64,000 bases of DNA from Parcubacteria group bacterium (GCA_016186325.1 JACPLW010000001.1:187-64186); one strand, 5' to 3'. Shown: positions 45,662 to 62,909, numbered from the stretch's first letter. Notes: generated from the sequence alone by a model not told the origin. Numbers and translations are program-made.

Positions 45662-45682
45662 TTAAGGACGTCGGACGTCCTT
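45662..45682. repeat. 21-bp perfect palindrome TAAGGACGTC-G-GACGTCCTTA (copy 1 of 3)
   Basis: Identical copies with a variable centre base at 57273-57293 and 58992-59012. Contains GACGTC. Confidence 0.8.
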
Positions 45683-45757
45683 ATATTGAGAGCTCTTTTC
45701 AAATACCTGTCGTTTATGGTATTTTTTTGTATATTTGGCATATCTAATTAAAATATT

Positions 45758-46675
45758 ATGCTTTCAATAGCAATACCAAGCAGAAACGAAATATTTTTGA
45801 GAAAAACAATTCTTGATGTATTGGCTAACGCTACCGGAGAAATTGAGATTTTTCCTGTTCTGGACGGATATGAACCGCCAAGCGAAGAAATTGTTGATGA
45901 TCCCAGGGTTCATTATTTGCGGATTCCTTTAGGGGATGGGAAATGCCATAAGCGCCAGGGCATAAACATGATGGTCGATGTATGCAAGGGAGAATACGTT
46001 TCTTCTCTGGATGCGCATTGCATGATGGCCAAAGGATTTGACGAACAGTTAGCCAAAGATCATCAGCCAAACTGGGTGCAAGTTCCTCGCAGGCACAGAT
46101 TAGACGCAGAAAATTGGTGTCTGCAAACCCAGTCCGATAACCGGCCGCCAATTGACTATGAATATCTAATGTTTCCCTTGAATTATCACCGCATGTCAGG
46201 CTCGCCCAAAGAGCCAAAGAAAGATTACCATCCGGCATTGCACGGCTTTAAGTGGGACGCGAGAACTCTGGCCCGTTCCCACATCCCGACTGACGAAACC
46301 ATAACCATACAGGGAAGTTTTTGGTTTATGACCAAGGACTGGTTTCGCAAAATAGATTTAATGCAGATAGAAGGATTCAGCGGGTGGGGACAAGAAGGAG
46401 AGGAAATTTGTTTTAAAACCTGGTTATCGGGGGGTAAGGTGATGGTCAATAAGAATACTTGGTACGCGCATCTGCACAAGGGACCCAAATACGGCCGAAT
46501 GTATCATATGAGCAAGGAATCAATCAGGAAATGCAATAACTATTCATACGATTTCTGGGTAAACAATCGCTGGGAAAAAAGAATTCATGATTTTGAATGG
46601 CTTATCCAAAAGTTCTGGCCGCTGCCAAACTGGCCGGATAACTGGAAAGAACTTCTATCCAAATGGTCTCAATAA
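45758..46675 (+). CDS. GT-A-fold glycosyltransferase-like protein, paralog family A (copy 1 of 4)
   Basis: The IAIPSRNE N-terminus is typical of GT2 and precedes a VLDGY motif. Shares the C-terminal WLIxKFWPxPxWPxNWKE motif with 46663, 50033 and 54102. Confidence 0.5.
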   Translation: MLSIAIPSRNEIFLRKTILDVLANATGEIEIFPVLDGYEPPSEEIVDDPRVHYLRIPLGDGKCHKRQGINMMVDVCKGEYVSSLDAHCMMAKGFDEQLAKDHQPNWVQVPRRHRLDAENWCLQTQSDNRPPIDYEYLMFPLNYHRMSGSPKEPKKDYHPALHGFKWDARTLARSHIPTDETITIQGSFWFMTKDWFRKIDLMQIEGFSGWGQEGEEICFKTWLSGGKVMVNKNTWYAHLHKGPKYGRMYHMSKESIRKCNNYSYDFWVNNRWEKRIHDFEWLIQKFWPLPNWPDNWKELLSKWSQ

Positions 46676-47499
46676 TAATTCCATCAAGAAACGAGATATT
46701 TCTCGAAAAAACGGTCAAAGGTCTTCTCGATAACTGTACCGGTGAGTTTGAAATTCTCGTTGTCTTGGATGGCTACAATCCCCCGGAGAGAAATTCTGAT
46801 TCGAGGGTCAAGTACATTCTTCATGAAGATAGCGTTGGTATGAGGGCGGGCATAAATTCCGCCGTGAAGATCGCCAAAGGCGAATTCTTGATGAAAATCG
46901 ACGCGCATTGCGTTGTAGACAAAGGTATAGATGAGAAACTGGCGGCGGATTGCGGGGATAATACGGTTATGATACCGAGGAGATACAAGCTGGACGACGA
47001 GAATTGGCGCGCCAATATGAATGAGACGCCGATTGATTACGAGCATTTCATATATCCCCTAAAATACGACCCGGTATCCCTTCACGGATTTAGGTGGAAA
47101 AGCAGAGCCGAAGAGCGAAAAGATATTTTAATAGACGATACTCTGACATTCCAAGGCTCATGCTGGTTTATGAAAAAGAGTCACTTCGAAAAGCACAAGT
47201 TTCTGAAGGTAAAAGAATTCCACGGCCTGCTTTACGGAGAGCCGGAGGAATTGGGATTGACCACGTGGCTTTCAGGAGGCAGGGTAGTGACGAATAAGAA
47301 AACCTGGTATGCGCACCTGTTCAAAGGGAAGAAATACGGGCGTGGCTATTTTATTGACAGAAATCAGGGCAGGGACTGCTATAGATATTCTTATAATTAT
47401 TGGGCTAACGAGAACAAAGAGGGTTTCATAAAGGTAATAGAAAAGTTCTGGCCGATTCCGGGATGGCCAGCTGACTGGAAAGAACGTTTATGGAATTAA
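46663..47499 (+). CDS. GT-A-fold glycosyltransferase-like protein, paralog family A (copy 2)
   Basis: MVSIIIPSRNEIFLEKT...VVLDGY with the shared C-terminal motif. Confidence 0.5.
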   Translation: MVSIIIPSRNEIFLEKTVKGLLDNCTGEFEILVVLDGYNPPERNSDSRVKYILHEDSVGMRAGINSAVKIAKGEFLMKIDAHCVVDKGIDEKLAADCGDNTVMIPRRYKLDDENWRANMNETPIDYEHFIYPLKYDPVSLHGFRWKSRAEERKDILIDDTLTFQGSCWFMKKSHFEKHKFLKVKEFHGLLYGEPEELGLTTWLSGGRVVTNKKTWYAHLFKGKKYGRGYFIDRNQGRDCYRYSYNYWANENKEGFIKVIEKFWPIPGWPADWKERLWN

Positions 47500-48140
47500 C
47501 AGTACTTTACTACACATCAAATAGAGAGGATGAATTTTTTGAGAATAAGGTTGTAGAAACAATAATACAGAACAAGGGAGGTTTGCCTGTGGTTTCTGTT
47601 TCTCAAAAACACATGAATTTTGGATATAATATCTGCGTGGGAACACAAGATAACTGCTACCATAATGAATTTCGCCAGATACAGTTAGGGTTGCTGGCCG
47701 TGAAGACGCCATATGTGATTATCGCCGAAGCAGATACGCTTTACCCGCCGGATTACTTTGCGTTCAGACCGCCAGAAAGAGGGCATGCTTATATGTATGA
47801 CAATGTATGGGTTCACTACACTCGATTCAACGGTAAACCTAAATTTTGGTTCAAAAAAAACAGTGATTGCGCTCAAGTAATCGACAGGAGTATGTGGTTG
47901 GAAAAGATCAATAAGGTCTTAGATTCGACCCCCAAATGGACATCAAAAGAAAATAAAGAATCTTATCGGATACAATATCGGGCAAATGGAGCGTGTATGT
48001 GGAACGGTAATCCGGTGGTCACATTCAAAACCCTCAATGGAGTTAAATCAAACACGGCTACCAAGAGGGGGGTTCCTCCACGATATAGCTTGCCATATTG
48101 GGGAAGCGCTATAGAACTTAGAAAACAAATGTTTACATGA
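47490..48140 (+). CDS. hypothetical protein, paralog family B (copy 1; paralog of 52085..52735)
   Basis: Shared YYTSNRE..FENK..VSQ..FG.NICVG motifs. Confidence 0.35.
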   Translation: MELTVLYYTSNREDEFFENKVVETIIQNKGGLPVVSVSQKHMNFGYNICVGTQDNCYHNEFRQIQLGLLAVKTPYVIIAEADTLYPPDYFAFRPPERGHAYMYDNVWVHYTRFNGKPKFWFKKNSDCAQVIDRSMWLEKINKVLDSTPKWTSKENKESYRIQYRANGACMWNGNPVVTFKTLNGVKSNTATKRGVPPRYSLPYWGSAIELRKQMFT

Positions 48141-48823
48141 AAAACTTAATGATTTACATAAATCCGTTAAAAGAATTTACCGAAGATTATATACGCCTGG
48201 TTAAGGTGCAGATAGATAATTCTATACGAACATGGGATAGAAAAGATATCTTATTGGTAACTAATTTCCCTTATTCCTACGGGGGGATTAATTCAATAGT
48301 GGTGCCCGATGACTTATTTTGTAACCATCGCAAAAGAGCCAGTAAGATAAATGTAATTTGCCACATGATGGATAACTACATGGTAGACGACATGTGCTGG
48401 TTTCATGATTTTGACGCGTATCAAGTTGATATATTTCCGGAAGATATATTAGGAAACAAAGACGCGGCCTTTACCGATTATGGGTTTAATACAATGTGGA
48501 ATACCGGAAGCTTCTTTTTTACCCAGAAAGCAAGGGATATTTTTGAACTTATCCGTCAGACTATGAACGCGAGGGTTGTAAATGAAGAAATAGCCTTAAG
48601 ATGGCTGACTTCTAGAAATATAAACAATATTAACGAACGGTATATAAAACTTAATAATACTTATAACTTGGGGCGAATGAGACACAATGAACTTACTTTT
48701 AAAAAAGCGGATAAACCCATTAAGGTATTCCATTTCCACCCCCGGATGACCCAGCTTTATGAAGAAGTTAAACCGCTTCTCCCAGATCATTTAATCGGAA
48801 TATTTGAAAAACATGGTTACTAA
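48137..48823 (+). CDS. putative glycosyltransferase (GT-A fold, HDFD DxD-like motif)
   Basis: 228 aa. Confidence 0.35.
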   Translation: MKNLMIYINPLKEFTEDYIRLVKVQIDNSIRTWDRKDILLVTNFPYSYGGINSIVVPDDLFCNHRKRASKINVICHMMDNYMVDDMCWFHDFDAYQVDIFPEDILGNKDAAFTDYGFNTMWNTGSFFFTQKARDIFELIRQTMNARVVNEEIALRWLTSRNINNINERYIKLNNTYNLGRMRHNELTFKKADKPIKVFHFHPRMTQLYEEVKPLLPDHLIGIFEKHGY

Positions 48824-48838
48824 AATTCATACTTCACA

Positions 48839-49492
48839 ATGGTAACGCTTCTTATAATGACAAATGGCCGCCGGGAATATCTAGAACGAACTTTGTCCAC
48901 ACTGGGGAAACTTCACGGTAATTTTTCGAGAATTCTGATTCATGACGATTCGGGAGATGAAGATTATCGTGATTGGCTTAAACAATTCGGCTACGAGCTT
49001 GCCACAACCCAGCGAGTCGGATTCACAAAGGCCATAGTTTCCGCATGGCAAAAACTCAAAGAAGATTCCAATGACTGGGTCTTCCACCTGGAAGACGACT
49101 TTATTTTTATGGAGGATATATATATTGACAACATGATTAATGTCATTAAAAATAACGACTATATCAAACAAATCGTGCTTCTCAGACAGCCGATCGGCAA
49201 CCGGGAGCGAAGAAAAGGAGGGATAATAGCTTCGCACCCTGAACGATATGAAGATAAAACTGACGGTACTAATTATTGGATAGAACATCGAGTTAATTAT
49301 TCTACCAATCCTTCTGTTTATAATAAATCTCTTATTTACGAACATCCTTGGCCAGATATGCCATATTCAGAACGTAAATACGGGCGAATGCTATTTAAGG
49401 ATCCAAATGCAAAATGCGCTTATTGGGGCAAAAGCACCGATAAGCCAAGAGTGATACATATAGGAGATGTTAGAAACGGATTTGGTTATTAA
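48839..49492 (+). CDS. GT2-like glycosyltransferase
   Basis: TLLIMTNGRREYLERTL N-terminus and an IHDDSGDED motif. Confidence 0.4.
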   Translation: MVTLLIMTNGRREYLERTLSTLGKLHGNFSRILIHDDSGDEDYRDWLKQFGYELATTQRVGFTKAIVSAWQKLKEDSNDWVFHLEDDFIFMEDIYIDNMINVIKNNDYIKQIVLLRQPIGNRERRKGGIIASHPERYEDKTDGTNYWIEHRVNYSTNPSVYNKSLIYEHPWPDMPYSERKYGRMLFKDPNAKCAYWGKSTDKPRVIHIGDVRNGFGY

Positions 49493-49495: not shown

Positions 49496-50029
49496 ATGAA
49501 GTTTGATAAATACCGGAAAAAAGGGGCCTATCATTGGAAAATGTACGATGAGGACAGATATTACCGCGAGCATGCGCATAGGATAAAGGAGTGGGTAAAA
49601 GAAAAAAATATTCTCGATATCGGCGCCGGGGATGGGAGAATAACTCACCTTCTGGGTATAATAGGAGTAGACGATGAACCGGAGGCGGTAAGGTTAGCAA
49701 TAGAAAAGGGGGCAAATGTGGTGCTTGGCGACGCCTATAATCTGACTTATAAAGATGAAGAGTTTGACTCCGTGCTTTTGGTAGATACGCTGGAACATTT
49801 CGAATTTCCGGAAAAGGCGCTCAAGGAAGCAAGGAGGGTTCTCAAATATTATATCTACATCGCCACGCCGCCGAGAGGCATGCTGGGAAGAATGGATAAA
49901 TATCATTATCAGGAATGGACGGAAGAAGAGCTCGTAAAGTTTGTCGAAGGGCAAGGGTTTACTCTGGAAGGCCGGACGCTTCTTGTTTTGAAAGAGCAGT
50001 GCATCTATGCTAAGTTTAAAAAATTATAA
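49496..50029 (+). CDS. class I SAM-dependent methyltransferase
   Basis: ILDIGAGDGRIT motif I. Confidence 0.55.
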   Translation: MKFDKYRKKGAYHWKMYDEDRYYREHAHRIKEWVKEKNILDIGAGDGRITHLLGIIGVDDEPEAVRLAIEKGANVVLGDAYNLTYKDEEFDSVLLVDTLEHFEFPEKALKEARRVLKYYIYIATPPRGMLGRMDKYHYQEWTEEELVKFVEGQGFTLEGRTLLVLKEQCIYAKFKKL

Positions 50030-50032: not shown

Positions 50033-50929
50033 ATGTTATCTGTAATAATTCCATCAAGAAGCGATGCTTATCTGCAAAAAACTGTAGATGATGTTTTAAA
50101 TAAGGCGAAAGGGGAGGTAGAAGTAGTTGTTGTGCTGGATGGTTATTGGCCCGGTACGATGGTAAGAGATGATAAGCGGGTTATAGTAATACACCACGGA
50201 GAACTACGTTCAAATTTCGGACTTCGAACGAGTGTAAATAGAGGCGTATTGGTTTCCAGAGGAAAATATATAATGAAAATAGACGACCATGTCGCTCTTG
50301 ATGAAGGATTTGATGTAAAGTTGGCCGCTGATTGTAAAGATGATTGGGTTGTTGTTCCAAGATTGTATGCATTAAAAGATGAAGGCTGGACCAAAGATAA
50401 CGCCGGCAGAGCGCCGTTTGACGCGGGATACGTGACATATCCTCTCAAAGATGGCACACTCTCCGGCAAGCCGTGGTCGGGGTGGCTTGAGAGCAGGAAA
50501 GAGATATTGATAGATGATTGCATGCTTTCGGCCGGAGCGTGCTATTTTATGAAACGGGAGCATTGGAATAAACTTGGCCTGCTTGATGAAAAGAATTATG
50601 GCGCCTTTCCATCTTTTGAGAACTTGGAGGTATGCCTCAAGACATGGCTAGGCGGCGGCAGAGTGGTAACAAATAAAAAAACCTGGTGCGCGCATAGATG
50701 GGGAGAAAGGGGACCCAAACATAAAGGTTGGGATTATTCAAATGAACAAGTCAGAAAAATACACGAGAATAGACGTGCGGCAATAAATTATACGAACGAT
50801 TTTTGGTTAAACAACAAATGGCCGGACAGAATCTACGATTTTGACTGGCTTATAGATAAATTCTGGCCGGTTCCCGACTGGCCCGAGAATTGGAAAGAAG
50901 AAATAAGAAAATGGTCACAGCAGCCATAA
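50033..50929 (+). CDS. GT-A-fold glycosyltransferase-like protein, paralog family A (copy 3)
   Basis: MLSVIIPSRSD...VVLDGY with the shared C-terminal motif. Confidence 0.5.
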   Translation: MLSVIIPSRSDAYLQKTVDDVLNKAKGEVEVVVVLDGYWPGTMVRDDKRVIVIHHGELRSNFGLRTSVNRGVLVSRGKYIMKIDDHVALDEGFDVKLAADCKDDWVVVPRLYALKDEGWTKDNAGRAPFDAGYVTYPLKDGTLSGKPWSGWLESRKEILIDDCMLSAGACYFMKREHWNKLGLLDEKNYGAFPSFENLEVCLKTWLGGGRVVTNKKTWCAHRWGERGPKHKGWDYSNEQVRKIHENRRAAINYTNDFWLNNKWPDRIYDFDWLIDKFWPVPDWPENWKEEIRKWSQQP

Positions 50930-50938: not shown

Positions 50939-51430
50939 ATGGGTAAAAATATAATTGAATGGGGGACTCACTTGCCGCTCTTGGTGAGAATGTTTGATAA
51001 AACCGAAGGCGATGTTTTGGAGATGGGAATGGGGCATTTTTCCACTCCGGTATTAAAATGGCTTTGCGAGATGAGCGGAAGAACTTTGTATTCCTATGAA
51101 AGCAAAATGGATTGGTATGAAAAAGCTGCTAGCGAAAGCAAGCCTTTTCATAAAGTGATTTTTTGCCAAGATTGGGCAAGCGCGGATATAGAACGGCATT
51201 GGGGGCTGGCTTTTATAGACCATAGTCCGATGAGGGAAAGATATATTGACATAAAAAGGCTGGCCAATTATGCCGACATTATTGTCATACATGATACGCA
51301 ACCGCAAAGCGACTGGGTTTATCGCTACAGCAAAATTTTCCCTTTATTCAAATACCGTCTGGATTTTTCTAAATATATTCCCTGGACAAGCGCGGTCAGT
51401 AATTTTATAGATGTTTCAAAACTTGGTTAA
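50939..51430 (+). CDS. hypothetical protein (possible methyltransferase-like)
   Basis: VLEMGMGHFST. Confidence 0.3.
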   Translation: MGKNIIEWGTHLPLLVRMFDKTEGDVLEMGMGHFSTPVLKWLCEMSGRTLYSYESKMDWYEKAASESKPFHKVIFCQDWASADIERHWGLAFIDHSPMRERYIDIKRLANYADIIVIHDTQPQSDWVYRYSKIFPLFKYRLDFSKYIPWTSAVSNFIDVSKLG

Positions 51431-57293: not shown

Positions 57294-57347
57294 ATATTGG
57301 CCTACTTAAATTGTTTATTATTAACATGTAACATAATGGTAAAAAAC

Positions 57348-58409
57348 ATGCAGAAAAGTAAAAAAATAAAAATCAAATTATTCCAGCCGTATGTTTCTCC
57401 GCTGGCCAGAAAAATGGTCCAAAAAGTTTTATCGGGAATCTGGATAGCCGAGGGCCCGATGGTAAAAGAATTTGAAAAAGAATTTGCCAAAAAATTCAAT
57501 CTGAAAAACGTTGCGGCAGTTAACTCCGGCACCAGCGCCTTAGAGCTGGCTTACGAACTCGCGGATATCAAATCGGGCGATGAGGTAATCACACCGGTTT
57601 TAACTTGCGTGATTACCAATGTTCCTTTGGTAAGGCGGGGAGCGAAAATAATTTTTGCCGATATAGATTACGATTTGAATATGAGTATTGAAGATGTCAA
57701 GAAAAAAATAACCCCAAGAACCAAGGCGATAGTTTTTATGCATTTCGGAGGAAATAACCGCGGGCTGAAAGAATTGATTAAAATATGCAAAGAACGGAAG
57801 ATTTGCCTCATTGAAGACGCCGCCCAAGCGGTCGGTTCCGATTTTTGGGGGAAGGCTGATTTTACCGCCGTCTCGCTTCAAGCGATTAAAATGATAACTT
57901 CCGGGGACGGAGGATTTTTGATATGTAAAAATAAAAAAGATTGCGACAAGGCCAAGCGGCTGCGCTGGTTCGGATATGACAGGGACAAAAGAGCAAAACT
58001 GGGAGATATTGATTTAAAAGAAGCCGGATACAAATATCAAATGTGCGATGTCGCGGCTTCTATAGGTTTGGGCAATTTGTTGTCTATTGATCCTGTTCTA
58101 GCCCATGGAAAACGCCTACAAAAAATTTATAAAAAATACGGACTGAAACCCCATGCCTGGGTATCGGTGGGTTTCACTGATAATTATAAAAAATTAAAAG
58201 AACTTTACGGCCGGGAGGGGATAGAAATAGGAAAAAATCATTTTCGTAACGATAAATACACTTTGTTCAAAAAATTTAGAACCCCTTTACCAATAATGAA
58301 CGAATTAGAGCATAGGTATTTTATTGTGCCAAGCCACTATGCGGTACCGGAAAAAATTGCCCATAAAATCGGCCGGATTTTTGTGAACAGTAAATTAAAT
58401 TTAAAATGA
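57348..58409 (+). CDS. DegT/DnrJ/EryC1/StrS-family PLP-dependent sugar aminotransferase
   Basis: EGPMVKEFEKEFAKKFN...AAVNSGTSALELA...PVLTCV. The internal ATG at 57348 is preferred. Confidence 0.65.
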   Translation: MQKSKKIKIKLFQPYVSPLARKMVQKVLSGIWIAEGPMVKEFEKEFAKKFNLKNVAAVNSGTSALELAYELADIKSGDEVITPVLTCVITNVPLVRRGAKIIFADIDYDLNMSIEDVKKKITPRTKAIVFMHFGGNNRGLKELIKICKERKICLIEDAAQAVGSDFWGKADFTAVSLQAIKMITSGDGGFLICKNKKDCDKAKRLRWFGYDRDKRAKLGDIDLKEAGYKYQMCDVAASIGLGNLLSIDPVLAHGKRLQKIYKKYGLKPHAWVSVGFTDNYKKLKELYGREGIEIGKNHFRNDKYTLFKKFRTPLPIMNELEHRYFIVPSHYAVPEKIAHKIGRIFVNSKLNLK

Positions 58410-58410: not shown

Positions 58411-58800
58411 ATGACTGATTTAAATAATGAAAATCCGCCATGGTATTCCTCGTATGAGAAAAATAATTACGGAGATTTGTTTTACGCGCTGATGCGCATT
58501 TATAAACCCAAGAAAGTTGTTGAATTGGGTACTAAAGCTGGATACAGCGCTTACCATATAGCAAGGGGGCTTAAGGATAATAGAAGAGGCACTCTGGACT
58601 GTTATGACTTGTGGGAGAGGTATGAATTTAAATCGGTACCTAAATCGGTTGCCGAGAAAAATTTAAAAAAATTTAAAGATATCATAAAACTTAAACAGCG
58701 CGACGCGATTGGAGTAAATAAGTTATATAAAAAAATTGATATTTTACATGTTGATGTCAGTAATGAGGGCGGAATTTTAGAAAAAATAATACCGAACTAG
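58411..58800 (+). CDS. small class I methyltransferase-like protein
   Basis: VVELGTKAGYSAYHIARGL. Confidence 0.35.
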   Translation: MTDLNNENPPWYSSYEKNNYGDLFYALMRIYKPKKVVELGTKAGYSAYHIARGLKDNRRGTLDCYDLWERYEFKSVPKSVAEKNLKKFKDIIKLKQRDAIGVNKLYKKIDILHVDVSNEGGILEKIIPN

Positions 58801-58991
58801 ATAGATAAGACACGCCAGCTTATAATTATTGAAGGCGGCTCACTAGAACGCGACAAGGTTGAGTGGATGATAAAATATAAAAAGATACCGATAAGAAAAT
58901 GGCTTAAAAATTTCGCTGACAAGAATGGAGATATTGAATATTTGATGATAGAACCGTTTCCTTCCATAACTATTATCTGCAAATTAAAAAT

Positions 58992-59012
58992 TAAGGACGT
59001 CTGACGTCCTTA
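58992..59012. repeat. 21-bp palindrome TAAGGACGTC-T-GACGTCCTTA (copy 3), preceded by AAATTAAAAAT
   Basis: Seen in sequence. Confidence 0.8.
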
Positions 59013-59016: not shown

Positions 59017-60141
59017 ATGAATAAAATTATTACAAATCAAGAAAAGAACGCCCCGATTTCTAACGGGGTGAAATTAAATTTAGGTTGCGGTAAAGAGCAT
59101 AAAGAGGGATATATCAATATTGATATTCAAGAACCTTGCGATTTGAGGCATGATTTAAGAACCCCTTGGCCGTTTGACGACGGTTCGGTTGATGAAATAT
59201 TCACCGAAGATACTGTCCGCATTTTTTCGCTCAAAGAATGGGAGAAGGTTAAAAAAGAGATGGCCAGGGTTTTAAAACCCGGCGGCAAGCTGGAGATTAT
59301 CTTCCCGGACTTTGAATACATACTTAATGCTTTTTTAAAAAATGAAGACGGAAGAAGATGGAGTTGGTGGTGGCGGGTAATCTTTGGCTCTCAAGAGAAC
59401 GACGAATACCGTGATATTTGCAAAAACAGTTTTACTTATAAAAAATTATTGGCCGAGTTATTTAAGAAAGGGATGATAAACTTTAAAAAACAGCGATTAG
59501 AAGAACAACCGGGCTATATCCATTTAACTTGTCATAAACAGCCAGTTGACTATAAGATGCCGCATTCCCTAAGAGTTTTAATCGGAGTGCCAATTCATAT
59601 AAATTATCCTATAGAAAAATGCTTGGGATATATCTCTAAATTGAAATACCGGGCAGACCTTTTAATGGTAGATACTTCCTCTGGCCTTGGCTATCTGGAG
59701 AAAGTGAATGGGTACTGCGCTAAATACGGGATAAAGAATTATAAGATAGAACATTTGGAAATTAATCAAGAACAAGGAGAGGATGAAAGAATCGGCCGCT
59801 CAAGGGAGATAATCCGGCAATATGTTCTTTCCCATAATTACGACGCATGGTTTTCCGTTGAATATGACAACATCCTGCCGGCTAATGCCTTGGACAAACT
59901 GGTCGGGTTGATGGAAGAAGGCAATTTTATGATGGTATTCGTCCCCGCATTGGCAAATAAAATTCTTTGTGAACCCACTACTAATTTTGGTTGCGCTTTA
60001 ATCAGGCGGGAATGCTTTGAAAAGCATGGTTTTTTGTCTGAATATGATGCGATCAAATGTTGGCATGGAGTGGAGGTTTTTTTCAAAAAACGTTTCATTA
60101 AAAGCAGAAACTATTCCGACGATATTTACGAAATGGTTTAA
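59017..60141 (+). CDS. two-domain protein: SAM methyltransferase (LNLGCG motif) fused to paralog family C domain
   Basis: The first 17 codons (MNKIITNQEKNAPISNG) derive from a degenerate copy of the IR element. The true start is probably the GTG at 59068, giving (M)KLNLGCG. Confidence 0.45.
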   Translation: MNKIITNQEKNAPISNGVKLNLGCGKEHKEGYINIDIQEPCDLRHDLRTPWPFDDGSVDEIFTEDTVRIFSLKEWEKVKKEMARVLKPGGKLEIIFPDFEYILNAFLKNEDGRRWSWWWRVIFGSQENDEYRDICKNSFTYKKLLAELFKKGMINFKKQRLEEQPGYIHLTCHKQPVDYKMPHSLRVLIGVPIHINYPIEKCLGYISKLKYRADLLMVDTSSGLGYLEKVNGYCAKYGIKNYKIEHLEINQEQGEDERIGRSREIIRQYVLSHNYDAWFSVEYDNILPANALDKLVGLMEEGNFMMVFVPALANKILCEPTTNFGCALIRRECFEKHGFLSEYDAIKCWHGVEVFFKKRFIKSRNYSDDIYEMV

Positions 60142-60187: not shown

Positions 60188-60808
60188 ATGAAAATCCTTA
60201 TCGGCACGCCAATCCATATTTGTAAGGACTATTGCATGGAGCGATGGCTCCAAAACGTAGTCGAACTCCGTCTAAAATATCCGGCCGATTTGCTTTTGGT
60301 TGATAATTCCCCAGGGCTTGAATATGTGGAGAAAATGAAGGGGTACTGTGCGAAATATGGAATAAAAAATTATAAGATTGAACACATAGAACTTCCCCAG
60401 GAAAAGGTTTATCACGAAAAAATAGCCCGCTCAAGGGAGATAATCAGACAAGAAATGCTTGCCCATGATTATGATGCTTGGTTTACATGGGAATCCGACC
60501 AGCTCATACCAACCAATACTTTGGGCGAACTGGTTAGGATAATGAAGGGTGGAAATTTTATGATGATTAATCCCAATAACTGGGCAAGGGGGGTTCCCGA
60601 TCAGCCCAATACCGACCACGGCCTTTCTTTAATTAAAAGAGAAGTTCTGGAAAAGCATGGTTTCCTGCTTGAGTTTGGCACCGATCCTGAGATGCCAAAA
60701 AACTGGGACGAAAGCGATGCTTGGTTTAAGAAACGCGTTCTAAGGGATGGAGGCAATTTTATTGAACTTTATGGCGTTATTGAACCAGTTTATCACTTAA
60801 ACGAATAA
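60188..60808 (+). CDS. paralog family C protein (small GT-A-like, uncharacterised), copy 2
   Basis: MKILIGTPIHICKDYCMERW...LLLVDNSPGLEYVEKMKGYCAKYGIKNYKIEH. Confidence 0.4.
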   Translation: MKILIGTPIHICKDYCMERWLQNVVELRLKYPADLLLVDNSPGLEYVEKMKGYCAKYGIKNYKIEHIELPQEKVYHEKIARSREIIRQEMLAHDYDAWFTWESDQLIPTNTLGELVRIMKGGNFMMINPNNWARGVPDQPNTDHGLSLIKREVLEKHGFLLEFGTDPEMPKNWDESDAWFKKRVLRDGGNFIELYGVIEPVYHLNE

Positions 60809-60811: not shown

Positions 60812-61618
60812 ATGCAACTTGGAATAACCACAATTCAACGCGACAGAGCTCCATGGATAAAAGAATGGGTTGCATTTCATTATTTAGTCGGCTTCAGGAA
60901 ATTTTATATCTATACTCACATGTGCTTGGATAACACGGAAGAGATTCTTAATGGTTTAAAAAATAAATTTGACATTACAATAATTCCGGTGGGGCCAGAG
61001 GTTGAAACGGCCCAAATGACGTCTTATCAGCATTCCTGCGACAATTTCCTGAAAGAAGTGGATTACATGGCGTTCATTGATAGTGATGAATTTTTATTCC
61101 CCACAGCTCATGATTCTATGGAAACTGCGCTGGCTGAATTTAACGATAAAAAAATATCCGCCCTAGGTGTTTATTGGTCGTGTTTTGGAAGCAGTGGATA
61201 TATTGAAGAACCGCCCGGTTTGATTATTGAAAATTATAGACGCAGAGCCGATGGCAATTTTGAGGCCAACCACCATGTAAAAAGCATTGTCCGCGGAAGG
61301 CAAGCCGCCTCATCCGTTCAAGTTGGTGAGAACGCGCATTTATTCAAAACTCCTCTTGGCACATTTGATGAGAATCTAAGGCCGATTACCTGCGGTCTTG
61401 AGATAAACTATGAGCCCACATATGAAAAATTTCGTATTAACCATTATATTTGCCAAAGCCGTTCATATTTTTTAAATTTCAAAAAAATTAACGTGGCGAT
61501 TTTCAAGGAAAGAATTAAACCGGAATCCTGGTGGGAGGAACATGATATAAATGATGTTTTAGACAATTCAACGGACAAATTTATCGGGCCATTAAAAAAT
61601 ATTTTAAATTCCATATGA
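60812..61618 (+). CDS. putative glycosyltransferase (GT-A fold, FIDSDEF DxD motif)
   Basis: 268 aa. Confidence 0.4.
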   Translation: MQLGITTIQRDRAPWIKEWVAFHYLVGFRKFYIYTHMCLDNTEEILNGLKNKFDITIIPVGPEVETAQMTSYQHSCDNFLKEVDYMAFIDSDEFLFPTAHDSMETALAEFNDKKISALGVYWSCFGSSGYIEEPPGLIIENYRRRADGNFEANHHVKSIVRGRQAASSVQVGENAHLFKTPLGTFDENLRPITCGLEINYEPTYEKFRINHYICQSRSYFLNFKKINVAIFKERIKPESWWEEHDINDVLDNSTDKFIGPLKNILNSI

Positions 61619-61689
61619 ATCCCGTTAGAAATAAAAAATCAGAGATTTTTGCCGACACGTCTGAAGCGAGTCGGATTTCTAACGGGATG
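61615..61689 (+). repeat. start-codon-embedded inverted-repeat element, copy D (arms 61620-61632 and 61675-61687)
   Basis: The leading ATG overlaps the upstream TGA stop as ATGA. The 3' arm ends on the ATG at 61687 (MKILIGTPIH). The ORF track reads through the element in frame. Confidence 0.6.
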
Positions 61690-62301
61690 AAAATCCTCAT
61701 CGGCACGCCAATCCACGAATGCAAGGATTATTGCATGGAAAGATGGCTGGAGAATGTTGCCAAACTTCAGCAACAGACCCCTGCCAATTTATTTTTGGTA
61801 GATAATTCGCCCGGGTTGGATTATGTGGAGAAAATCAAAAATTACTGTGCGAAATATGGAATTACGAATTACAAAATAGAACATTTGGAAATCAATCAGG
61901 CGCAAGGAGCGGACGAGAGGATCGGCCGTTCAAGAGAAATAATCAGGCAGGAAATTCTTTCCCATGATTATGACGCTTGGTTCTCCTGGGAATGCGACCA
62001 AATTATACCGGCGAATGCCTTGGATAAATTGATTGATATAATGAAAATAGGGGATTACGCGATGGTTAGCCACGGTTCATGGTCAAGAAAAAATCCCGGT
62101 AGTCCCGAAAATGATTTAGGATGCGCTTTAATAAAAGGAGTATGCTTAGAAAAATACAGTTTCTTGCTTCAAGAGTACTGGGACCTGACTCGGTCTTGGC
62201 ATGCCGGCGCAAGATGGTTTAAGCATCGTTTACTTAAAGGCGGAGACAATTATATTGAGGTCTATGGAGTAGTCGCTCCCATATACCATTTAAACGAATG
62301 A
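61687..62301 (+). CDS. paralog family C protein, copy 3
   Basis: MKILIGTPIHECKDYCMERW. The start is reassigned from 61615 to 61687. Confidence 0.45.
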   Translation: MKILIGTPIHECKDYCMERWLENVAKLQQQTPANLFLVDNSPGLDYVEKIKNYCAKYGITNYKIEHLEINQAQGADERIGRSREIIRQEILSHDYDAWFSWECDQIIPANALDKLIDIMKIGDYAMVSHGSWSRKNPGSPENDLGCALIKGVCLEKYSFLLQEYWDLTRSWHAGARWFKHRLLKGGDNYIEVYGVVAPIYHLNE

Positions 62302-62909
62302 AAATACTTATCGGCACACCAATTCATATCTGCAAAGATTATGCTATGGAAAGATGGCTTAAAAGCGTATCCGAGCTTACTTACCCTCACGATTTTATGA
62401 TGGTTGATAATTCGCCTGACGAATCATATCTGGAAACGGTTAAGGGCTATTGCGCAAAATACGGCATCACCAACTATAAGCTGGTACATGTTGACGTTGA
62501 CCAAAAGTTGGGCACTGACGGAAAGTTATCCTTTGCCAGAGAAATAATAAGGCAGGAGATTTTAACAAAAGGATATGATGCCTGGTGTACTTTGGAGTGC
62601 GACATCATTGCTCCGCCAAACGCTCTTGATGAATTAGTCAGATTAATAGCCGATTGCATGGAAATTAATCACTCCTATCCATCCAGAATAAATCCAAAGG
62701 AGATGATGAGCGGTTTCGGGCTGTCTTTAGTTAAAAGAGAAGCGCTTGAGAAATATGAGTTTATCGGCCAGTACGGCGATTGCGACCCGGAGATGCCCGG
62801 TATTTTTCAGGGAGGAGAAAGCTGGTTTATTACAAGGGTTATTAGAAATGGCGGTAGTTGTATTGATGTTTCCGGGGTTATCAAGCCAATTTTTCATCTG
62901 GATAAATAG
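62298..62909 (+). CDS. paralog family C protein, copy 4
   Basis: MKILIGTPIHICKDYAMERW. Confidence 0.4.
   Translation: MKILIGTPIHICKDYAMERWLKSVSELTYPHDFMMVDNSPDESYLETVKGYCAKYGITNYKLVHVDVDQKLGTDGKLSFAREIIRQEILTKGYDAWCTLECDIIAPPNALDELVRLIADCMEINHSYPSRINPKEMMSGFGLSLVKREALEKYEFIGQYGDCDPEMPGIFQGGESWFITRVIRNGGSCIDVSGVIKPIFHLDK

What the first reader, a model, noticed from the sequence alone, without database searches (positions are those of the whole stretch)
45662..62909. ~17-kb glycosylation island built from expanded paralog families and partitioned by identical GACGTC palindromes
Family A is four GT-A/GT2-like genes (45758, 46663, 50033, 54102) sharing the IIPSRNE...VLDGY start and an unusual C-terminal WLIxKFWPxPxWPxNWKE motif. 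Family B is two copies (47490, 52085). Family C is four copies (59017 C-terminal domain, 60188, 61687, 62298) of a ~200-aa MKILIGTPIH...VDNSPG protein. The island also holds three different SAM methyltransferases, a DegT-type aminotransferase and two further GT-A genes. The three 21-bp perfect palindromes (45662, 57273, 58992) bound modules. The DegT plus MTase pair lies exactly between copies 2 and 3. Both copies share the extended 32-bp AAATTAAAAATTAAGGACGTCNGACGTCCTTA, like cassette boundaries or shared terminators. This degree of paralog amplification in a genome this compact is notable.
Basis: partly seen in the sequence, partly recalled or inferred. Interest (0 to 1): 0.75.

Follow-up and report, generated by a model that had tools for sequence, protein, structure and literature searches.

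The report
Conserved CPR glycosylation locus peppered with REPs
This 17-kb stretch of an ultra-small (CPR/Patescibacteria) bacterium's genome is an old, widely conserved set of sugar-adding enzymes that most likely coats a giant serine/proline-repeat protein encoded next door, and its three identical palindromes are stray copies of a small mobile hairpin (REP) found across this bacterial group, not module boundaries.

Summary
The three paralog families are real (33-59% identity), and the three 21-bp palindromes lie where stated (0 expected by chance).

- **Host:** the window is a CPR (Microgenomates-like) chromosome.
- **Conservation:** the "island" is syntenic in eight loci from other CPR lineages.
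- **Paralogs:** they are ancient. Family C copies pair with orthologs in other genomes, and relatives carry more copies than this genome. This is not a recent amplification.
- **Fold:** all three families are GT-A fold. Family A is closest to eukaryotic mucin-type polypeptide GalNAc-transferases (GT27, profile E 3e-18).
- **Likely function:** none of the enzymes has a membrane segment, and there is no lipid-carrier machinery. A giant Ser/Pro-repeat protein gene follows the cluster in every locus examined. I infer cytoplasmic O-glycosylation of that protein.
- **Palindromes:** AAGGACGTCNGACGTCCTT recurs across distant CPR classes. In other genomes it brackets a Y1/HUH transposase (RAYT-like). 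Each RAYT clade has its own palindrome, usually with a third copy inside the RAYT ORF. The window's copies are therefore solo REPs. REP3 is a clean insertion relative to an ortholog.
an AbiE toxin-antitoxin cassette at the module junction, an A-B fusion enzyme, and two decayed genes.

The parts
42415..43437 (+). Conserved secreted ~340-aa protein with an N-terminal signal-like hydrophobic segment. It marks the left edge of the conserved locus.
   Evidence: 55-60% identical to the syntenic genes in L038 and L040. Hydrophobic N-terminus. No Pfam match.
43453..44247 (+). TatC
   Evidence: Pfam PF00902, E 2.5e-39. Syntenic in L038 and L040. Tat genes are also next to the cluster in L005 and L124.
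44385..44579 (+). TatA. A second, partial TatA-like copy lies just upstream; the tandem repeat is 44240-44315 / 44356-44431.
   Evidence: 64-70% identical to TatA genes of L038 and L040. Direct repeat family D9.
44709..44939 (+). Small protein with a twin-arginine-like N-terminus (MDENRRKFLKIILIGGGA...)
   Evidence: ORF translation. 38-50% identical to syntenic ORFs in L038 and L040. The Tat-signal reading is inference from the sequence.
45060..45661 (+). Conserved ~200-aa Zn-ribbon / DUF2190-like protein gene, frameshifted in this genome. The two pieces are 45060-45551 and 45485-45661.
   Evidence: Alignment with intact 199-203-aa orthologs. Weak Pfam Phage_cement_2 hit, E 3e-4, below cutoff. 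The same truncated 163-aa gene call appears in independent assemblies L121 and L123.
45663..45683 (.). REP copy 1 (TAAGGACGTCGGACGTCCTTA). It starts 1 nt after the stop codon (45659-45661) of the frameshifted gene.
45758..46675 (+). Family A1: GT27-like GT-A glycosyltransferase
   Evidence: Pfam GT2. 67% identical to the syntenic genes in L038 and L040. Family profile matches polypeptide GalNAc-transferases at E 3e-18.
46663..47499 (+). Family A2
   Evidence: 47% identical to A1. Pfam GT2, E 7e-16.
47490..48140 (+). Family B1: GT-A-like, no Pfam match
   Evidence: 34% identical to o52085 and 35% to o54102 residues 334-433. AlphaFold model pLDDT 80. Foldseek hits SpsA, K4CP and ppGalNAc-T1 at E 2e-6 to 6e-6.
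48137..48823 (+). Conserved 228-aa protein of unknown function
   Evidence: 75% identical to L040 7421-8104. No Pfam or NCBIfam match.
48839..49492 (+). GT2-type GT-A glycosyltransferase
   Evidence: Pfam PF00535, E 5e-6, above cutoff. 76% identical to L040 8611-9261.
49496..50029 (+). SAM methyltransferase (Methyltransf_11)
   Evidence: Pfam E 2e-16.
50033..50929 (+). Family A3, a divergent paralog
   Evidence: 38-40% identical to A1 and A2. The nearest 50%-cluster representative is 53% identical.
50939..51430 (+). 163-aa protein of unknown function
   Evidence: 37% identical to L040 8156-8611. No Pfam match.
51411..52088 (+). 225-aa protein of unknown function
   Evidence: No Pfam or NCBIfam match. 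No homolog in the four comparison loci.
52085..52735 (+). Family B2
52736..53341 (+). SAM methyltransferase (Methyltransf_24)
   Evidence: Pfam E 7e-21. 65-70% identical to orthologs in L038 and L040.
53343..54089 (+). GT2 / Glyco_tranf_2_2 glycosyltransferase
   Evidence: Pfam E 7e-17. 72% identical to the L038 ortholog.
54102..55769 (+). A-B fusion: a two-domain GT-A enzyme, the most conserved gene of the locus
   Evidence: One search shows both domains. 65-76% identical homologs occur across CPR, with 6259 hits.
55664..55762 (+). Left copy of the 99-nt direct repeat (the true 3' end of o54102)
   Evidence: Repeat family D8, 90% identity.
55798..56451 (+). AbiEi antitoxin / transcriptional regulator
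   Evidence: PADLOC AbiEi, 209 bits, E 1e-62.
56426..57142 (+). AbiEii nucleotidyltransferase toxin
   Evidence: Pfam PF08843, E 1e-19. PADLOC 259 bits.
57148..57262 (+). Relic second copy of the 3' end of o54102. It reads ...EKRWNQKDFRRKPTFWEEGNINTIPGWDNARKLL..., and the stop codon is at 57260-57262.
   Evidence: family D8.
57273..57293 (.). REP copy 2. The unit shared with copy 3 is 32 nt long and starts at 57262.
   Evidence: (family D10).
57297..58409 (+). DegT/DnrJ/EryC1-type PLP sugar aminotransferase. The likely ATG start is at 57336.
   Evidence: Pfam E 4e-59. A 357-aa gene call appears in L001.
58411..59004 (+). Methyltransf_24 gene with an in-frame TAG at 58798-58800 (Trp in orthologs). 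The frame runs into REP3 and ends at the TGA in the hairpin loop.
   Evidence: 74% identical over 182 aa to the L005 ortholog across the stop. A 129-aa gene call recurs in L001-L003.
58992..59012 (.). REP copy 3. It is a ~31-nt insertion between two genes that overlap (ATGA) in the Roizmanbacteria ortholog.
59017..60141 (+). Methyltransf_11 + family C fusion
   Evidence: Pfam. C-terminal residues 185-374 are 39-49% identical to the other C copies. The ortholog is L005 6910-7980.
60188..60808 (+). Family C: compact GT-A-fold protein, no Pfam match
   Evidence: AlphaFold model pLDDT 94. Foldseek hits ColGalT1, SpsA, TarP and RmlT at E 1e-9 to 1e-7, TMq 0.65-0.69.
60812..61618 (+). GT92 / Glyco_tranf_2_4-like glycosyltransferase
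   Evidence: Pfam E 8e-15. 64-68% identical to orthologs in L005 and L007.
61615..62301 (+). Family C. The likely true start is the MKILIGTPIH methionine at 61687.
62298..62909 (+). Family C
62923..64000 (+). Ser/Pro-repeat protein: a ~215-aa N-terminal domain followed by SPSxSPS repeats that run off the window. It is the candidate glycosylation substrate.
   Evidence: Translation. The ortholog in L005 is 1287 aa. An equivalent giant S/P-rich ORF follows the cluster in L007/L008, L038, L040, L124, L125 and L126.

Best explanation
Two unrelated things are superimposed here.

**1. A conserved glycosylation locus.** The 17-kb stretch is this organism's version of a locus shared across Candidate Phyla Radiation (Patescibacteria) bacteria.
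- It encodes 14 GT-A-fold domains in 13 genes. Family A is GT27-like. Families B and C are GT-A folds with no Pfam family. There are also three single GT2/GT92 genes.
- It also encodes four SAM methyltransferase domains and one DegT sugar aminotransferase.
- All of these are soluble proteins. The locus has no flippase, polymerase or lipid-carrier transferase.
- A giant Ser/Pro-repeat protein gene follows the cluster on the same strand, here and in every related locus examined.
- The most likely mechanism (inferred, not shown): DegT and the methyltransferases tailor nucleotide sugars or the growing glycan. GT27-like family A enzymes attach the first sugar to serines of the SPS repeats in the cytoplasm. 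The B, C, GT2 and GT92 enzymes extend it stepwise, each old paralog adding a different sugar or linkage. The glycoprotein is then exported, possibly with help from the adjacent Tat genes (speculative).

**2. Solo REP elements.** The three GACGTC palindromes are non-autonomous hairpins that a RAYT-like Y1/HUH transposase recognises.
- This REP/RAYT family is spread across CPR.
- The RAYT gene itself is not in the window.
- The copies have landed in three intergenic junctions of the locus.
- The same junction after the A-B fusion gene has also taken up an AbiE toxin-antitoxin cassette here, and other selfish genes in relatives.
For: **Host.** GroEL, DnaK, penicillin-binding proteins, DnaB and CysRS are in the window. 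Homologs come from Levy-, Roizman-, Gottesman-, Kaiserbacteria and Paceibacterota.

**Families.** BLASTP confirms them.
- Family A profile: the top 14 PDB hits are all polypeptide GalNAc-transferases, E 3e-18 to 2e-13, covering profile positions 4-255 of 289. The alignment includes LDAHC (the DxH motif) and the Gal/GalNAc-T motif. D36, D85, H87 and H238 are invariant.
- Family C model: pLDDT 94, GT-A fold.
- Family B model: pLDDT 80, GT-A-like.

**Solubility.** No enzyme has a TM-like segment.

**Synteny.**
- Secreted protein - TatC - TatA - 200-aa protein - A - MT24 - GT2_2 - A-B fusion is shared with L038 and L040 at 50-76% identity.
- DegT - MT24 - MT11/C - C - GT92 - C - C is shared with L005 and partly with L007/L008.
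- The family C tree groups copies by ortholog, not by genome.

**Substrate candidate.** A giant S/P-rich ORF lies downstream on the same strand in the window and in 8 of 8 comparison loci.

**REP identity.**
- The exact 19-mer occurs in 29 stretches of the species-representative genome set. About 25 are Patescibacteria of different classes, and several genomes carry multiple copies.
- The stem flanks differ between copies but stay complementary.
- The pair brackets a ~227-aa Y1_Tnp protein in L010, L011, L016 and L033. That protein has the HUH motif (NHYHLL) and the Tyr motif (YYIHLNP).
- Its only NCBIfam hit is REP_Tyr_transpos.
- In 80 metagenomic RAYT loci each clade is flanked by its own palindrome. 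L041-L043 carry the very 21-mers seen in the window.
- REP3 is a clean insertion relative to L005.
- AbiE is confirmed by PADLOC and flanked by 99-nt repeats.
- The same slot holds a RAYT in L038, Fic plus AbiEii in L007/L008, and GIY-YIG in L124.
Against: - No biochemical or expression data exist. The acceptor, the sugars and the export route are all inferred from gene neighbourhood and fold.
- Family A lacks the lectin domain of GT27 enzymes. Its similarity to them is remote and was detected with a profile.
- The Ser/Pro-repeat protein has no recognisable signal peptide or twin-arginine motif.
- A soluble-enzyme cluster could instead decorate teichoic-acid-like polymers or other acceptors.
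- For the REP reading, no RAYT lies in the 64-kb window and the rest of the genome is not available.
- Only 3 copies are seen, all within 13.4 kb. That is far below classical REP abundance.
- The CPR protein scores 39.6 bits against NCBI's RAYT model (cutoff 80).
- It lacks the (R/K)xG part of the RAYT-specific motif.
- The REP has no GT(A/G)G head.
- A hairpin can also act as a transcript stabiliser or terminator whatever its origin.
Confidence: 0.72

Rival explanations
1. The palindromes are intrinsic transcription terminators or mRNA-stabilising hairpins that mark operon ends within the cluster. On this view that is their main reason for being there.
For: All three lie in intergenic positions right after stop codons. 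The hairpins are stable, at -11 to -19 kcal/mol with z-scores of -3.3 to -6. The window holds many other long perfect intergenic palindromes, so hairpins at gene ends are a habit of this genome. REPs in E. coli are known to stabilise upstream mRNA (my own knowledge).
Against: On the coding strand no U-tract follows any of the three. The consensus scan calls them terminator-like only on the antisense strand. An identical 19-21-nt sequence shared with distant CPR classes is not expected of independently evolved terminators. Orthologous clusters work without them, and the genes flanking REP3 overlap (ATGA) in L005. This function could still coexist with a REP origin.
Confidence: 0.2
2. The palindromes are cassette boundaries or site-specific recombination sites (integron-attC-like) that move glycosylation modules in and out.
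For: Copies 2 and 3 bracket a two-gene unit (DegT plus methyltransferase) and share 32 nt. The cluster's gene content differs between lineages.
Against: There is no integrase or recombinase in the locus. DegT-MT24 sits in the same place in L005, and DegT is also present in L007/L008, in every case without any palindrome. The same palindrome occurs in unrelated contexts in other CPR genomes, and its only recurrent gene partner is a Y1 transposase. attC sites are longer and imperfect (my own knowledge).
Confidence: 0.05
3. The palindromes are operator sites for a transcription factor that co-regulates the glycosylation genes. A tandem GACGTC-N-GACGTC would suit a dimeric regulator.
For: There are three identical copies upstream of three gene groups. 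GACGTC is over-represented in the window, with 13 matches against 5 expected, but 6 of the 13 belong to the three palindromes.
Against: Flanks outside the core co-vary to keep a longer stem. That points to a hairpin in a single strand, not to a duplex operator. The same core flanks and even lies inside RAYT genes. Syntenic clusters in relatives lack it.
Confidence: 0.04
4. The cluster is a recently acquired or recently amplified accessory island specific to this genome.
For: GC3 of the cluster genes is 0.41-0.43 against 0.355 for 28 core genes. Codon-frequency correlation with the core is 0.84-0.91 against 0.98 between core halves. A tRNA-Lys lies 3.5 kb upstream. The cluster holds selfish inserts and decayed genes. 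Cluster proteins are 65-76% identical to those on Kaiserbacteria/Paceibacterota contigs, which is high for such distant lineages and may reflect lateral exchange among CPR.
Against: Order and neighbours (Tat genes, secreted protein, S/P-repeat gene) are kept in eight other loci. Paralogs are 33-59% identical and group with orthologs elsewhere. There is no integrase. Overall GC does not stand out.
Confidence: 0.1
5. The enzymes build or decorate a non-protein glycan, for example a cell-wall polysaccharide, a teichoic-acid-like polymer or a glycolipid. The neighbouring Ser/Pro-repeat gene would then be a bystander.
For: Structural neighbours of families B and C include TarP, RmlT (wall teichoic acid glycosyltransferases), SpsA and chondroitin polymerase. 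Many GT2 enzymes act on lipid or polymer acceptors.
Against: The locus has no membrane-embedded enzyme, flippase, polymerase, ABC exporter or priming phosphoglycosyl transferase. Family A's nearest solved relatives are protein O-GalNAc transferases. A giant S/P-repeat ORF follows the cluster in all eight comparison loci.
Confidence: 0.22

Closest known systems
REP / RAYT systems (E. coli REP-BIME with TnpA-REP/RayT; Pseudomonas and Stenotrophomonas REPs and REPINs; Nunvar et al. 2010, PMC2817692; Bertels et al. 2017, PMC5581495)
   Same: - Short extragenic palindromes are scattered as solo copies at gene ends.
- The cognate gene is a Y1/HUH (IS200-like) transposase flanked on both sides by the same palindrome.
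- The palindrome sequence and the transposase clade co-vary.
- Stems are kept by compensatory changes.
- Supporting calls: 29, 30, 33, 51, 52, 87.
   Different: - The host is CPR/Patescibacteria. I found no such report in the papers searched.
- The hairpin is a perfect palindrome without a GT(A/G)G head.
- The protein is ~227 aa and falls below NCBI's RAYT cutoff (39.6 against 80 bits).
- It has NPL but not the following (R/K)xG.
- Copy number appears low.
- A third copy of the palindrome lies inside the RAYT ORF in 27 of 27 loci with a detectable flanking pair.
- No RAYT lies in this window.
Serine-rich repeat protein (SRRP) glycosylation islands of Gram-positive bacteria (Fap1, GspB, PsrP with GtfA/B, Gtf3, GlyA-G and the accessory Sec system; e.g. 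PMC5207161, PMC7948813)
   Same: - A very long Ser-rich repeat protein is encoded next to an array of soluble glycosyltransferases, several of them paralogous.
- In SRRP systems these enzymes glycosylate the protein in the cytoplasm, step by step, before export.
- Glycan-tailoring enzymes sit in the same locus.
- GlyE of the PsrP system is among the structural neighbours of family B.
   Different: - There is no GtfA/GtfB (GT4, GT-B fold) initiating pair and no SecA2/SecY2 or Asp genes.
- The likely initiating enzymes here are GT27-like.
- The repeats are SPS(V/L/A), not SASx/SVSx dipeptide-type.
- Tat genes, not accessory Sec genes, are the conserved neighbours.
- None of this has been tested experimentally here.
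Eukaryotic mucin-type O-glycosylation: polypeptide GalNAc-transferases (CAZy GT27)
   Same: - The family A profile aligns over the whole GT27 catalytic domain.
- The DxH (LDAHC) motif, the Gal/GalNAc-T motif and the C-terminal metal-binding His are kept.
- The putative acceptor is a Ser/Pro-rich tandem repeat, as in mucins.
   Different: - There is no ricin-type lectin domain and no membrane anchor.
- A distinct C-terminal WLIxKFxPxPxWP motif is present instead.
- The proteins are cytoplasmic, not Golgi-resident.
- Sequence identity is low and detectable only with a profile.
- Donor sugar and acceptor are unknown.
AbiE (AbiEi/AbiEii) type IV toxin-antitoxin / abortive-infection module
   Same: There are two overlapping genes in the order antitoxin-regulator then nucleotidyltransferase toxin. 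PADLOC scores are strong, at 209 and 259 bits.
   Different: Here it is an insert inside a glycosylation locus, flanked by a 99-nt duplication of the neighbouring gene's 3' end. No activity has been tested.
Integron gene cassettes with attC sites
   Same: Short palindromic sequences lie between co-oriented genes.
   Different: - There is no integrase.
- The palindromes are perfect and only 21 nt long.
- Only three junctions carry them.
- The same sequence is linked to a Y1 transposase elsewhere.
- I rejected this reading.

Membership tests
REP/RAYT system | Short palindromic repeats, mostly extragenic, present in several copies per genome | tested here: met
   Three identical copies lie at gene ends in the window. 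Other CPR genomes carry 2-4 exact copies on different contigs. The whole-genome count for the source organism is not available.
REP/RAYT system | A Y1/HUH transposase gene flanked on both sides by the same REP | tested here: met
   Met in other genomes: L010, L011, L016, L033 and L041-L043 carry exactly this palindrome. 27 of 48 full-length RAYT loci have identical-arm palindromes on both sides. No RAYT lies in the window itself.
REP/RAYT system | Catalytic HUH motif and nucleophilic tyrosine | tested here: met
   NHYHLL and YYIHLNP are invariant in alignment A4. Pfam Y1_Tnp E about 1e-10. PDB hits to IS200-family TnpA cover the HUH region.
REP/RAYT system | RAYT-specific NP(L/V)(R/K)xG motif next to the tyrosine (Nunvar 2010, PMC2817692) | tested here: not met
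   NPL is present, but it is followed by DLI, not (R/K)xG.
REP/RAYT system | REP carries a conserved 5' GT(A/G)G head (Nunvar 2010) | tested here: not met
   The flanks are A/T-rich (AATATT or AAAATT) and contain no GTAG or GTGG.
REP/RAYT system | Score above NCBIfam NF047646 (REP_Tyr_transpos) cutoff | tested here: not met
   39.6 and 39.0 bits against a cutoff of 80. It is nevertheless the only NCBIfam hit.
REP/RAYT system | REP sequence co-evolves with the RAYT clade | tested here: met
   At least 20 different palindromes were seen, each flanking its own RAYT clade.
REP/RAYT system | RAYT is single-copy per genome while REPs are abundant (dozens to hundreds) | not testable with these tools
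   Only 64 kb of the source genome is available. In the species-representative set, most loci with the palindrome have no RAYT within 8 kb.
GT2 (Pfam PF00535), family A | Pfam gathering score reached | tested here: met
   39.7-59.1 bits against a cutoff of 23.3 for all four members.
GT27 polypeptide GalNAc-transferase (family A) | Catalytic domain with DxH motif, Gal/GalNAc-T motif and C-terminal metal-binding His | tested here: met
   Profile A7 aligns to GalNAc-T catalytic domains over positions 4-255 of 289. LDAHC aligns to LDAHC. D85, H87 and H238 are invariant.
GT27 polypeptide GalNAc-transferase (family A) | C-terminal ricin-type lectin domain and type II membrane anchor | tested here: not met
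   The proteins are 278-305 aa, have no TM segment and end in a WLIxKFxPxPxWP motif instead.
GT27 polypeptide GalNAc-transferase (family A) | Transfers GalNAc from UDP-GalNAc to Ser/Thr of a protein | not testable with these tools
   This needs an enzyme assay.
GT-A fold glycosyltransferases (families B and C) | Rossmann-like GT-A fold with an acidic DxD-like motif | tested here: met
   Family C: pLDDT 94, TMq 0.65-0.69 to ColGalT1, SpsA and TarP. D39 and D104 are invariant and E102 nearly invariant, in the WExD stretch. Family B: pLDDT 80, TMq 0.5-0.57 to SpsA and K4CP. E80 and D82 are invariant. Family B support is the weaker of the two.
SRRP-type glycosylation island | Ser-rich repeat substrate gene next to multiple glycosyltransferase genes | tested here: met
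   True for the window plus 8 of 8 comparison loci.
SRRP-type glycosylation island | GtfA/GtfB initiating pair and accessory Sec (SecA2/SecY2/Asp) export genes | tested here: not met
   None appear among the Pfam hits of the locus. Tat genes are the conserved neighbours instead.
AbiE toxin-antitoxin | Adjacent AbiEi and AbiEii genes | tested here: met
   PADLOC 209 and 259 bits. The genes overlap by 26 nt.
Integron cassette array | IntI integrase and attC sites at each cassette end | tested here: not met
   No integrase lies in the locus. Only 3 of about 25 gene junctions carry the palindrome.

The most novel reading that the evidence does not exclude
CPR/Patescibacteria may share a previously undescribed, Tat-linked, cytoplasmic mucin-type O-glycosylation system. 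In it, GT27-like enzymes and two unclassified GT-A families would coat giant Ser/Pro-repeat proteins of 1,000 to more than 2,700 aa. These proteins would be likely surface fibres relevant to the episymbiotic lifestyle.

The same genomes host a distinct REP/RAYT lineage. Its transposase gene carries a third copy of its own hairpin inside the coding sequence, at nt +140 to +200, co-varying with the flanking REPs. This suggests self-recognition or autoregulation by the transposase.
Probability: 0.4. Interest if true: 0.8.

Novelty: new variant of a known kind. Interest (0 to 1): 0.62.

Why it matters
CPR bacteria are tiny, mostly uncultivated episymbionts, and how they build their surface and attach to hosts is largely unknown.

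**The glycosylation locus.** A cluster conserved across CPR classes pairs mucin-type-like glycosyltransferases with giant Ser/Pro-repeat proteins. This gives a concrete, testable candidate for a major surface glycoprotein system. It would also extend GT27-like protein O-glycosylation to bacteria.

**The palindromes.** REP/RAYT systems have been described mainly in Proteobacteria and a few other phyla.
- Finding a co-evolving REP/RAYT family in streamlined ~1-Mb genomes bears on how such elements persist.
- The hairpin embedded in the transposase ORF bears on how they are controlled.

**For annotation.**
- Families B and C, and the CPR RAYTs now labelled only "transposase", could be named.
- The antisense mis-calls over the Ser/Pro-repeat genes in public gene sets could be corrected.

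Tried and rejected
- **Phage origin.** Megablast of 12 kb of the window against phage genomes found nothing. The window holds housekeeping genes.
- **Known RNA family.** An Rfam E-value scan of 45-64 kb gave only two chance snoRNA-like hits, and none at the palindromes.
- **Degenerate copies.** The window has no further copies of the palindrome at up to 3 mismatches.
- **RAYT in the window.** tblastn found none.
- **Palindrome in syntenic clusters of relatives.** It is absent from L005, L007, L008, L038, L040 and L124-L126. The palindrome therefore does not belong to the cluster as such.
- **Integron or cassette model.** Rejected, because no integrase is present and the sequence has a Y1-transposase partner elsewhere.
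- **DNA-uptake-sequence idea.** Considered because CPR rely on DNA uptake. Rejected because exact-copy numbers per genome are low and the stem flanks co-vary.
- **Restriction-site (AatII GACGTC) idea.** Nothing supports it beyond the hexamer itself.
- **ETV6/TELSAM hits to the B domain of o54102.** Each individual stretch has an i-Evalue of 0.29 or worse. The summed score comes from triplicated fusion constructs, so I treated these as spurious.
- **GC content.** It does not mark the locus. GC3 and codon usage differ modestly, which is not decisive.
- **Literature.** Searches for RAYT or REP in CPR, and for CPR O-glycosylation, GT27 or serine-rich proteins, found nothing relevant. The library lacks most subscription journals, so absence is weak evidence.
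- **Unresolved proteins.** o48137, o50939 and o51411 have no Pfam or NCBIfam match.

Full report
**1. The observation**

The pattern GGACGTCNGACGTCC occurs exactly three times in the 64-kb window, at 45666, 57276 and 58995. No match appeared in 100 shuffles. No degenerate copies turn up at up to 3 mismatches.

Each occurrence is the centre of a perfect 21-bp palindrome, TAAGGACGTCNGACGTCCTTA. Copies 2 and 3 share a 32-nt unit that differs only at the central base (family D10).

The region 45758-62909 is one uninterrupted run of + strand ORFs. All-vs-all BLASTP confirms the three paralog families:
- Family A: o45758, o46663, o50033 and o54102, at 33-47% identity.
- Family B: o47490 and o52085, at 34% identity.
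- Family C: o59017 C-terminal half, o60188, o61615 and o62298, at 39-59% identity.

Pfam confirms GT2 for family A. It also confirms DegT, Methyltransf_11/24, two further GT2 genes and a GT92-like gene.

- A third family B copy is fused to family A in o54102.
- An AbiEi/AbiEii pair lies at 55798-57142.
- That pair sits between 99-nt direct repeats of 90% identity. These duplicate the 3' end of o54102.
- The gene at 45060-45661 is frameshifted.
- The methyltransferase gene at 58411 has an in-frame TAG.

**2. Host**

The rest of the window encodes GroEL, DnaK/DnaJ, two penicillin-binding proteins, D-Ala-D-Ala ligase, IMPDH, DnaB, CysRS and four tRNAs. There is no match to phage genomes.

Homologs of the cluster proteins come from Levy-, Roizman-, Gottesman-, Blackburn-, Collier- and Kaiserbacteria and from Paceibacterota. 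The window is therefore a chromosome segment of a CPR (Patescibacteria, Microgenomates-like) bacterium. Identical genes occur on short contigs from several runs (SRR12113383-SRR12113424).

**3. The palindromes are REPs**

*Distribution.* A scan of one genome per species (596 Gb) for AAGGACGTCNGACGTCCTT found 29 stretches.
- About 25 are Patescibacteria of very different classes: Saccharibacteria, Lipton-, Wolfe-, Kaiserbacteria and unnamed groups.
- Several genomes have copies on two or three contigs.
- My own estimate is that an 18-base palindromic pattern should occur by chance roughly nine times in the whole collection, and well under once in the small CPR fraction.

*Structure.* The central base varies freely. 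The sequence outside the 19-mer differs from copy to copy yet stays complementary, for example cacaaaaat|core|atttttgtg and ccaatct|core|agattgg. A hairpin is therefore being maintained. Most copies lie within a few bases of gene ends.

*Partner gene.* In four of these loci (L010, L011, L016, L033) the palindrome is adjacent to one short gene, and in L010 and L033 a pair of copies brackets it.
- The gene encodes a ~227-aa Y1/HUH transposase (Pfam Y1_Tnp, E about 1e-10).
- It has an NHYHLL (HUH) motif and a YYIHLNP tyrosine motif.
- Its only NCBIfam hit is "REP-associated tyrosine transposase", at 39.6 bits, below the cutoff of 80.

*Co-variation.* A metagenome scan with these proteins returned 80 loci.
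- Almost every gene is flanked on both sides by a perfect palindrome.
- The palindrome differs between protein clades. Examples are CGACATCNGATGTCG, GGAGATCGTATCTCC, AGAGGCCNGGCCTCT and CGGGGTCNGACCCCG.
- The closest clade (L041-L043) carries exactly the 21-mers seen in the window.
- In a conservative count, 27 of 48 full-length loci had identical-arm perfect palindromes on both sides.

A Y1 transposase flanked by its own co-evolving palindrome, plus dispersed solo copies, is the defining arrangement of REP/RAYT systems (Nunvar 2010, PMC2817692).

*In the window.* It contains no RAYT, so its three copies are solo REPs. REP3 is visibly an insertion:
- In Roizmanbacteria the two flanking genes overlap (…AAGTTATGA…).
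- Here about 31 nt separate them.
- The upstream frame runs five codons into the hairpin and stops at the TGA in its loop.

None of the eight syntenic clusters from other genomes carries this palindrome.

*Departures from classical RAYT systems.*
- The REP has no GT(A/G)G head.
- The protein has NPL but not the following (R/K)xG.
- It scores below NCBI's cutoff.
- Copy number appears low.

I found no report of REP/RAYT in CPR in the papers searched. The family has 4440 homologs, annotated only as "transposase".

**4. Terminators?**

The hairpins are stable, at -11 to -19 kcal/mol. On the coding strand, however, no U-tract follows them. The consensus scan calls all three terminator-like only on the antisense strand.

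A role in transcript stabilisation or in blocking antisense transcription cannot be excluded. It would be secondary to their origin.

**5. The cluster is old and conserved, not an amplified accessory island**

*Module 1* runs: secreted 340-aa protein - TatC - TatA - small RR-motif protein - 200-aa Zn-ribbon/DUF2190-like protein - A - … - MT24 - GT2_2 - A-B fusion.
- It is syntenic at 50-76% amino-acid identity in L038 and in L040. L040 is a contig whose A-B fusion protein (P0132) is named Kaiserbacteria in the protein database.
- Similar versions occur in L124-L126.

*Module 2* runs: DegT - MT24 - MT11/C fusion - C - GT92 - C - C.
- It is syntenic in Roizmanbacteria L005.
- It is partly syntenic in Gottesmanbacteria L007/L008.

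*Age of the paralogs.*
- A neighbour-joining tree of family C groups copies by ortholog across genomes, for example W_60188 with R_7987 and G_10001, and W_62298 with G_18567.
- Those relatives have 6-7 copies against 4 here.
- The extra A and B copies are 33-47% identical to their paralogs.
- A3, which is 38-40% identical to A1 and A2, has a nearest 50%-cluster representative at only 53% identity.
- The C-terminal WLIxKFWPxPxWP motif is a hallmark of the whole family A, not a peculiarity of this genome.

*Composition.* GC content does not set the locus apart. GC3 is somewhat higher, at 0.41-0.43 against 0.355.

*Junction hotspot.* The slot after the A-B fusion gene collects selfish DNA:

| Locus | Insert after the A-B fusion gene |
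|---|---|
| Window | AbiE cassette plus REP2 |
| L038 | A RAYT with its own GC-rich REPs |
| L007/L008 | Fic plus AbiEii |
| L124 | A GIY-YIG gene |

*Decay.* The frameshift at 45060-45661 and the TAG in the MT24 gene recur in independent assemblies, so both are real.

**6. What the enzymes are**

- *Family A.* A profile finds, among all solved structures, polypeptide GalNAc-transferases (GT27) as its 14 best hits (E 3e-18 to 2e-13). The alignment spans the whole catalytic domain, with LDAHC matched to LDAHC (the DxH motif) and the Gal/GalNAc-T motif. D36, D85, H87 and H238 are invariant. Family A lacks the lectin domain and the membrane anchor.
- *Family C* (no Pfam match). The model has pLDDT 94 and is a GT-A fold. 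Its nearest structures are collagen galactosyltransferase ColGalT1, SpsA, TarP and RmlT.
- *Family B* (no Pfam match). The model has pLDDT 80 and is also GT-A-like, though less clearly. This makes o54102 a two-domain enzyme.

In all there are 14 GT-A domains in 13 genes, four methyltransferase domains and one PLP aminotransferase. None has a TM-like segment. The locus has no flippase, polymerase, ABC exporter or priming transferase.

**7. Likely substrate and mechanism (inference)**

The ORF immediately downstream (62923 to the window end) has a ~215-aa N-terminal domain followed by SPSxSPS repeats. Its ortholog in Roizmanbacteria is 1287 aa, of which about 1000 aa are SPSV repeats.

A giant Ser/Pro(/Thr)-rich ORF lies downstream, on the same strand, in every comparison locus:

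| Locus | Position and size of the S/P-rich ORF |
|---|---|
| L007/L008 | from 19278 |
| L038 | 14231-18541, and a second from 18554 |
| L040 | 12343-14826 |
| L124 | at least 2752 aa |
| L125 | at least 2660 aa |
| L126 | at least 1375 aa |

Public gene calls often place spurious antisense genes over these repeats.

The simplest model combines soluble GT27-like enzymes, many other GT-A enzymes, sugar-tailoring enzymes and a mucin-like neighbour. It is stepwise cytoplasmic O-glycosylation of the repeat protein, analogous in logic to the serine-rich-repeat-protein islands of Gram-positive bacteria. It lacks GtfA/B and the accessory Sec system.

The conserved Tat genes suggest an export link. 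The repeat protein shows no twin-arginine signal, however, so this link is speculative. A non-protein acceptor remains a serious rival.

**8. Verdict**

It is wrong on cassette boundaries, recent amplification and accessory status.

What is there is a conserved CPR glycosylation locus carrying three solo REPs of a CPR-wide REP/RAYT lineage and an AbiE insert.

Both the locus (GT27-like enzymes with a giant Ser/Pro-repeat protein) and the REP/RAYT lineage look undescribed. In the RAYT lineage the hairpin is repeated inside the ORF in 27 of 27 loci that have a flanking pair. Both are variants of known kinds of system. All functional statements are inferences from sequence, fold and neighbourhood.

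Noticed in passing
L041-L117 (RAYT loci; e.g. L042 3153-3167, L046 +143, L060 +150, L061 +156): CPR RAYT genes carry a third copy of their own clade-specific REP core inside the coding sequence, at nt +134 to +202 (about aa 46-67, a variable loop before the HUH motif). It co-varies with the flanking REPs. It was seen in 21 of 23 hand-checked loci and in 27 of 27 loci with a detectable flanking pair. It may be an autoregulatory or self-recognition hairpin. It is not mentioned in Nunvar 2010 (no occurrences of 'inside', 'intragenic' or 'coding region').
   Followed up: partly
window 55664-55762 and 57148-57246: 99-nt direct repeats of 90% identity flank the AbiEi/AbiEii cassette. The second copy is a relic duplicate of the last ~38 codons of the A-B fusion gene, and REP2 follows it. 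This suggests the cassette arrived by recombination together with a diverged copy of the gene end.
   Followed up: partly
window 45060-45661: The highly conserved ~200-aa Zn-ribbon / DUF2190-like (weak Phage_cement_2) protein is 73% identical between L038 and a contig whose A-B fusion protein is named Kaiserbacteria (L040). It is frameshifted in this population, and the same truncated call appears in independent assemblies. Its function is unknown. It always sits between TatA and the first glycosyltransferase.
   Followed up: partly
window 58798-58800: There is an in-frame TAG where orthologs have Trp (TGG) in an otherwise intact Methyltransf_24 gene. It is present in several independent assemblies. 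It is either a pseudogene or a read-through or recoding event.
   Followed up: partly
window 4055-4082 and 7687-7716; also 25946-25969: A second repeated palindrome family has arms ACCCCGCCCTT...AAGGGCGGGGT. One copy lies upstream of the chaperonin gene and one downstream of the ORF that follows it. A related CCCCGCACC...GGTGCGGGG lies after the D-Ala-D-Ala ligase gene. These may be another REP family or GC-rich terminators.
   Followed up: no
window 21170-21202, 13036-13074, 31249-31288, 20341-20382: Many other long perfect intergenic palindromes have stems of 16-20 bp. The one at 21170 has a centre GATGTCCGACATC that resembles the REP core. Long hairpins at gene ends appear to be a general habit of this genome.
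   Followed up: no
L038 11722-11750 and 12474-12506: In the closest long relative, a RAYT (34% identical to the L010 type) sits directly after the A-B fusion gene. It is flanked by its own REP, GGGGGAAGC(n)GCTTCCCCC. This is the same slot that holds AbiE plus REP2 in the window.
   Followed up: yes
L005 14643-14981, L124 13509-21791, L126 17685-21668: Public gene calls place spurious antisense ORFs rich in G, E, T, D and L over the giant Ser/Pro-repeat genes. As a result these proteins are missing or mis-stranded in protein databases.
   Followed up: partly
window 44240-44315 and 44356-44431: A tandem duplication of 84% identity covers the start of TatA. The first copy appears truncated. A similar 32-33-aa ORF precedes TatA in L038 and L040.
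   Followed up: no
L009, L015, L020, L021, L032: In some CPR genomes the REP occurs as a doublet, with a second GGACGTCNGACGTCC placed 0-25 nt away. This is reminiscent of REPIN- or BIME-like arrangements.
   Followed up: no
L031 1992-2010 and L037 2284-2302: Two contigs of one Thermoanaerobaculia genome carry the same 19-mer within a longer shared context (cattccgaac|core|ggaggaatc). This suggests an unrelated repeat family there that happens to share the core.
   Followed up: no
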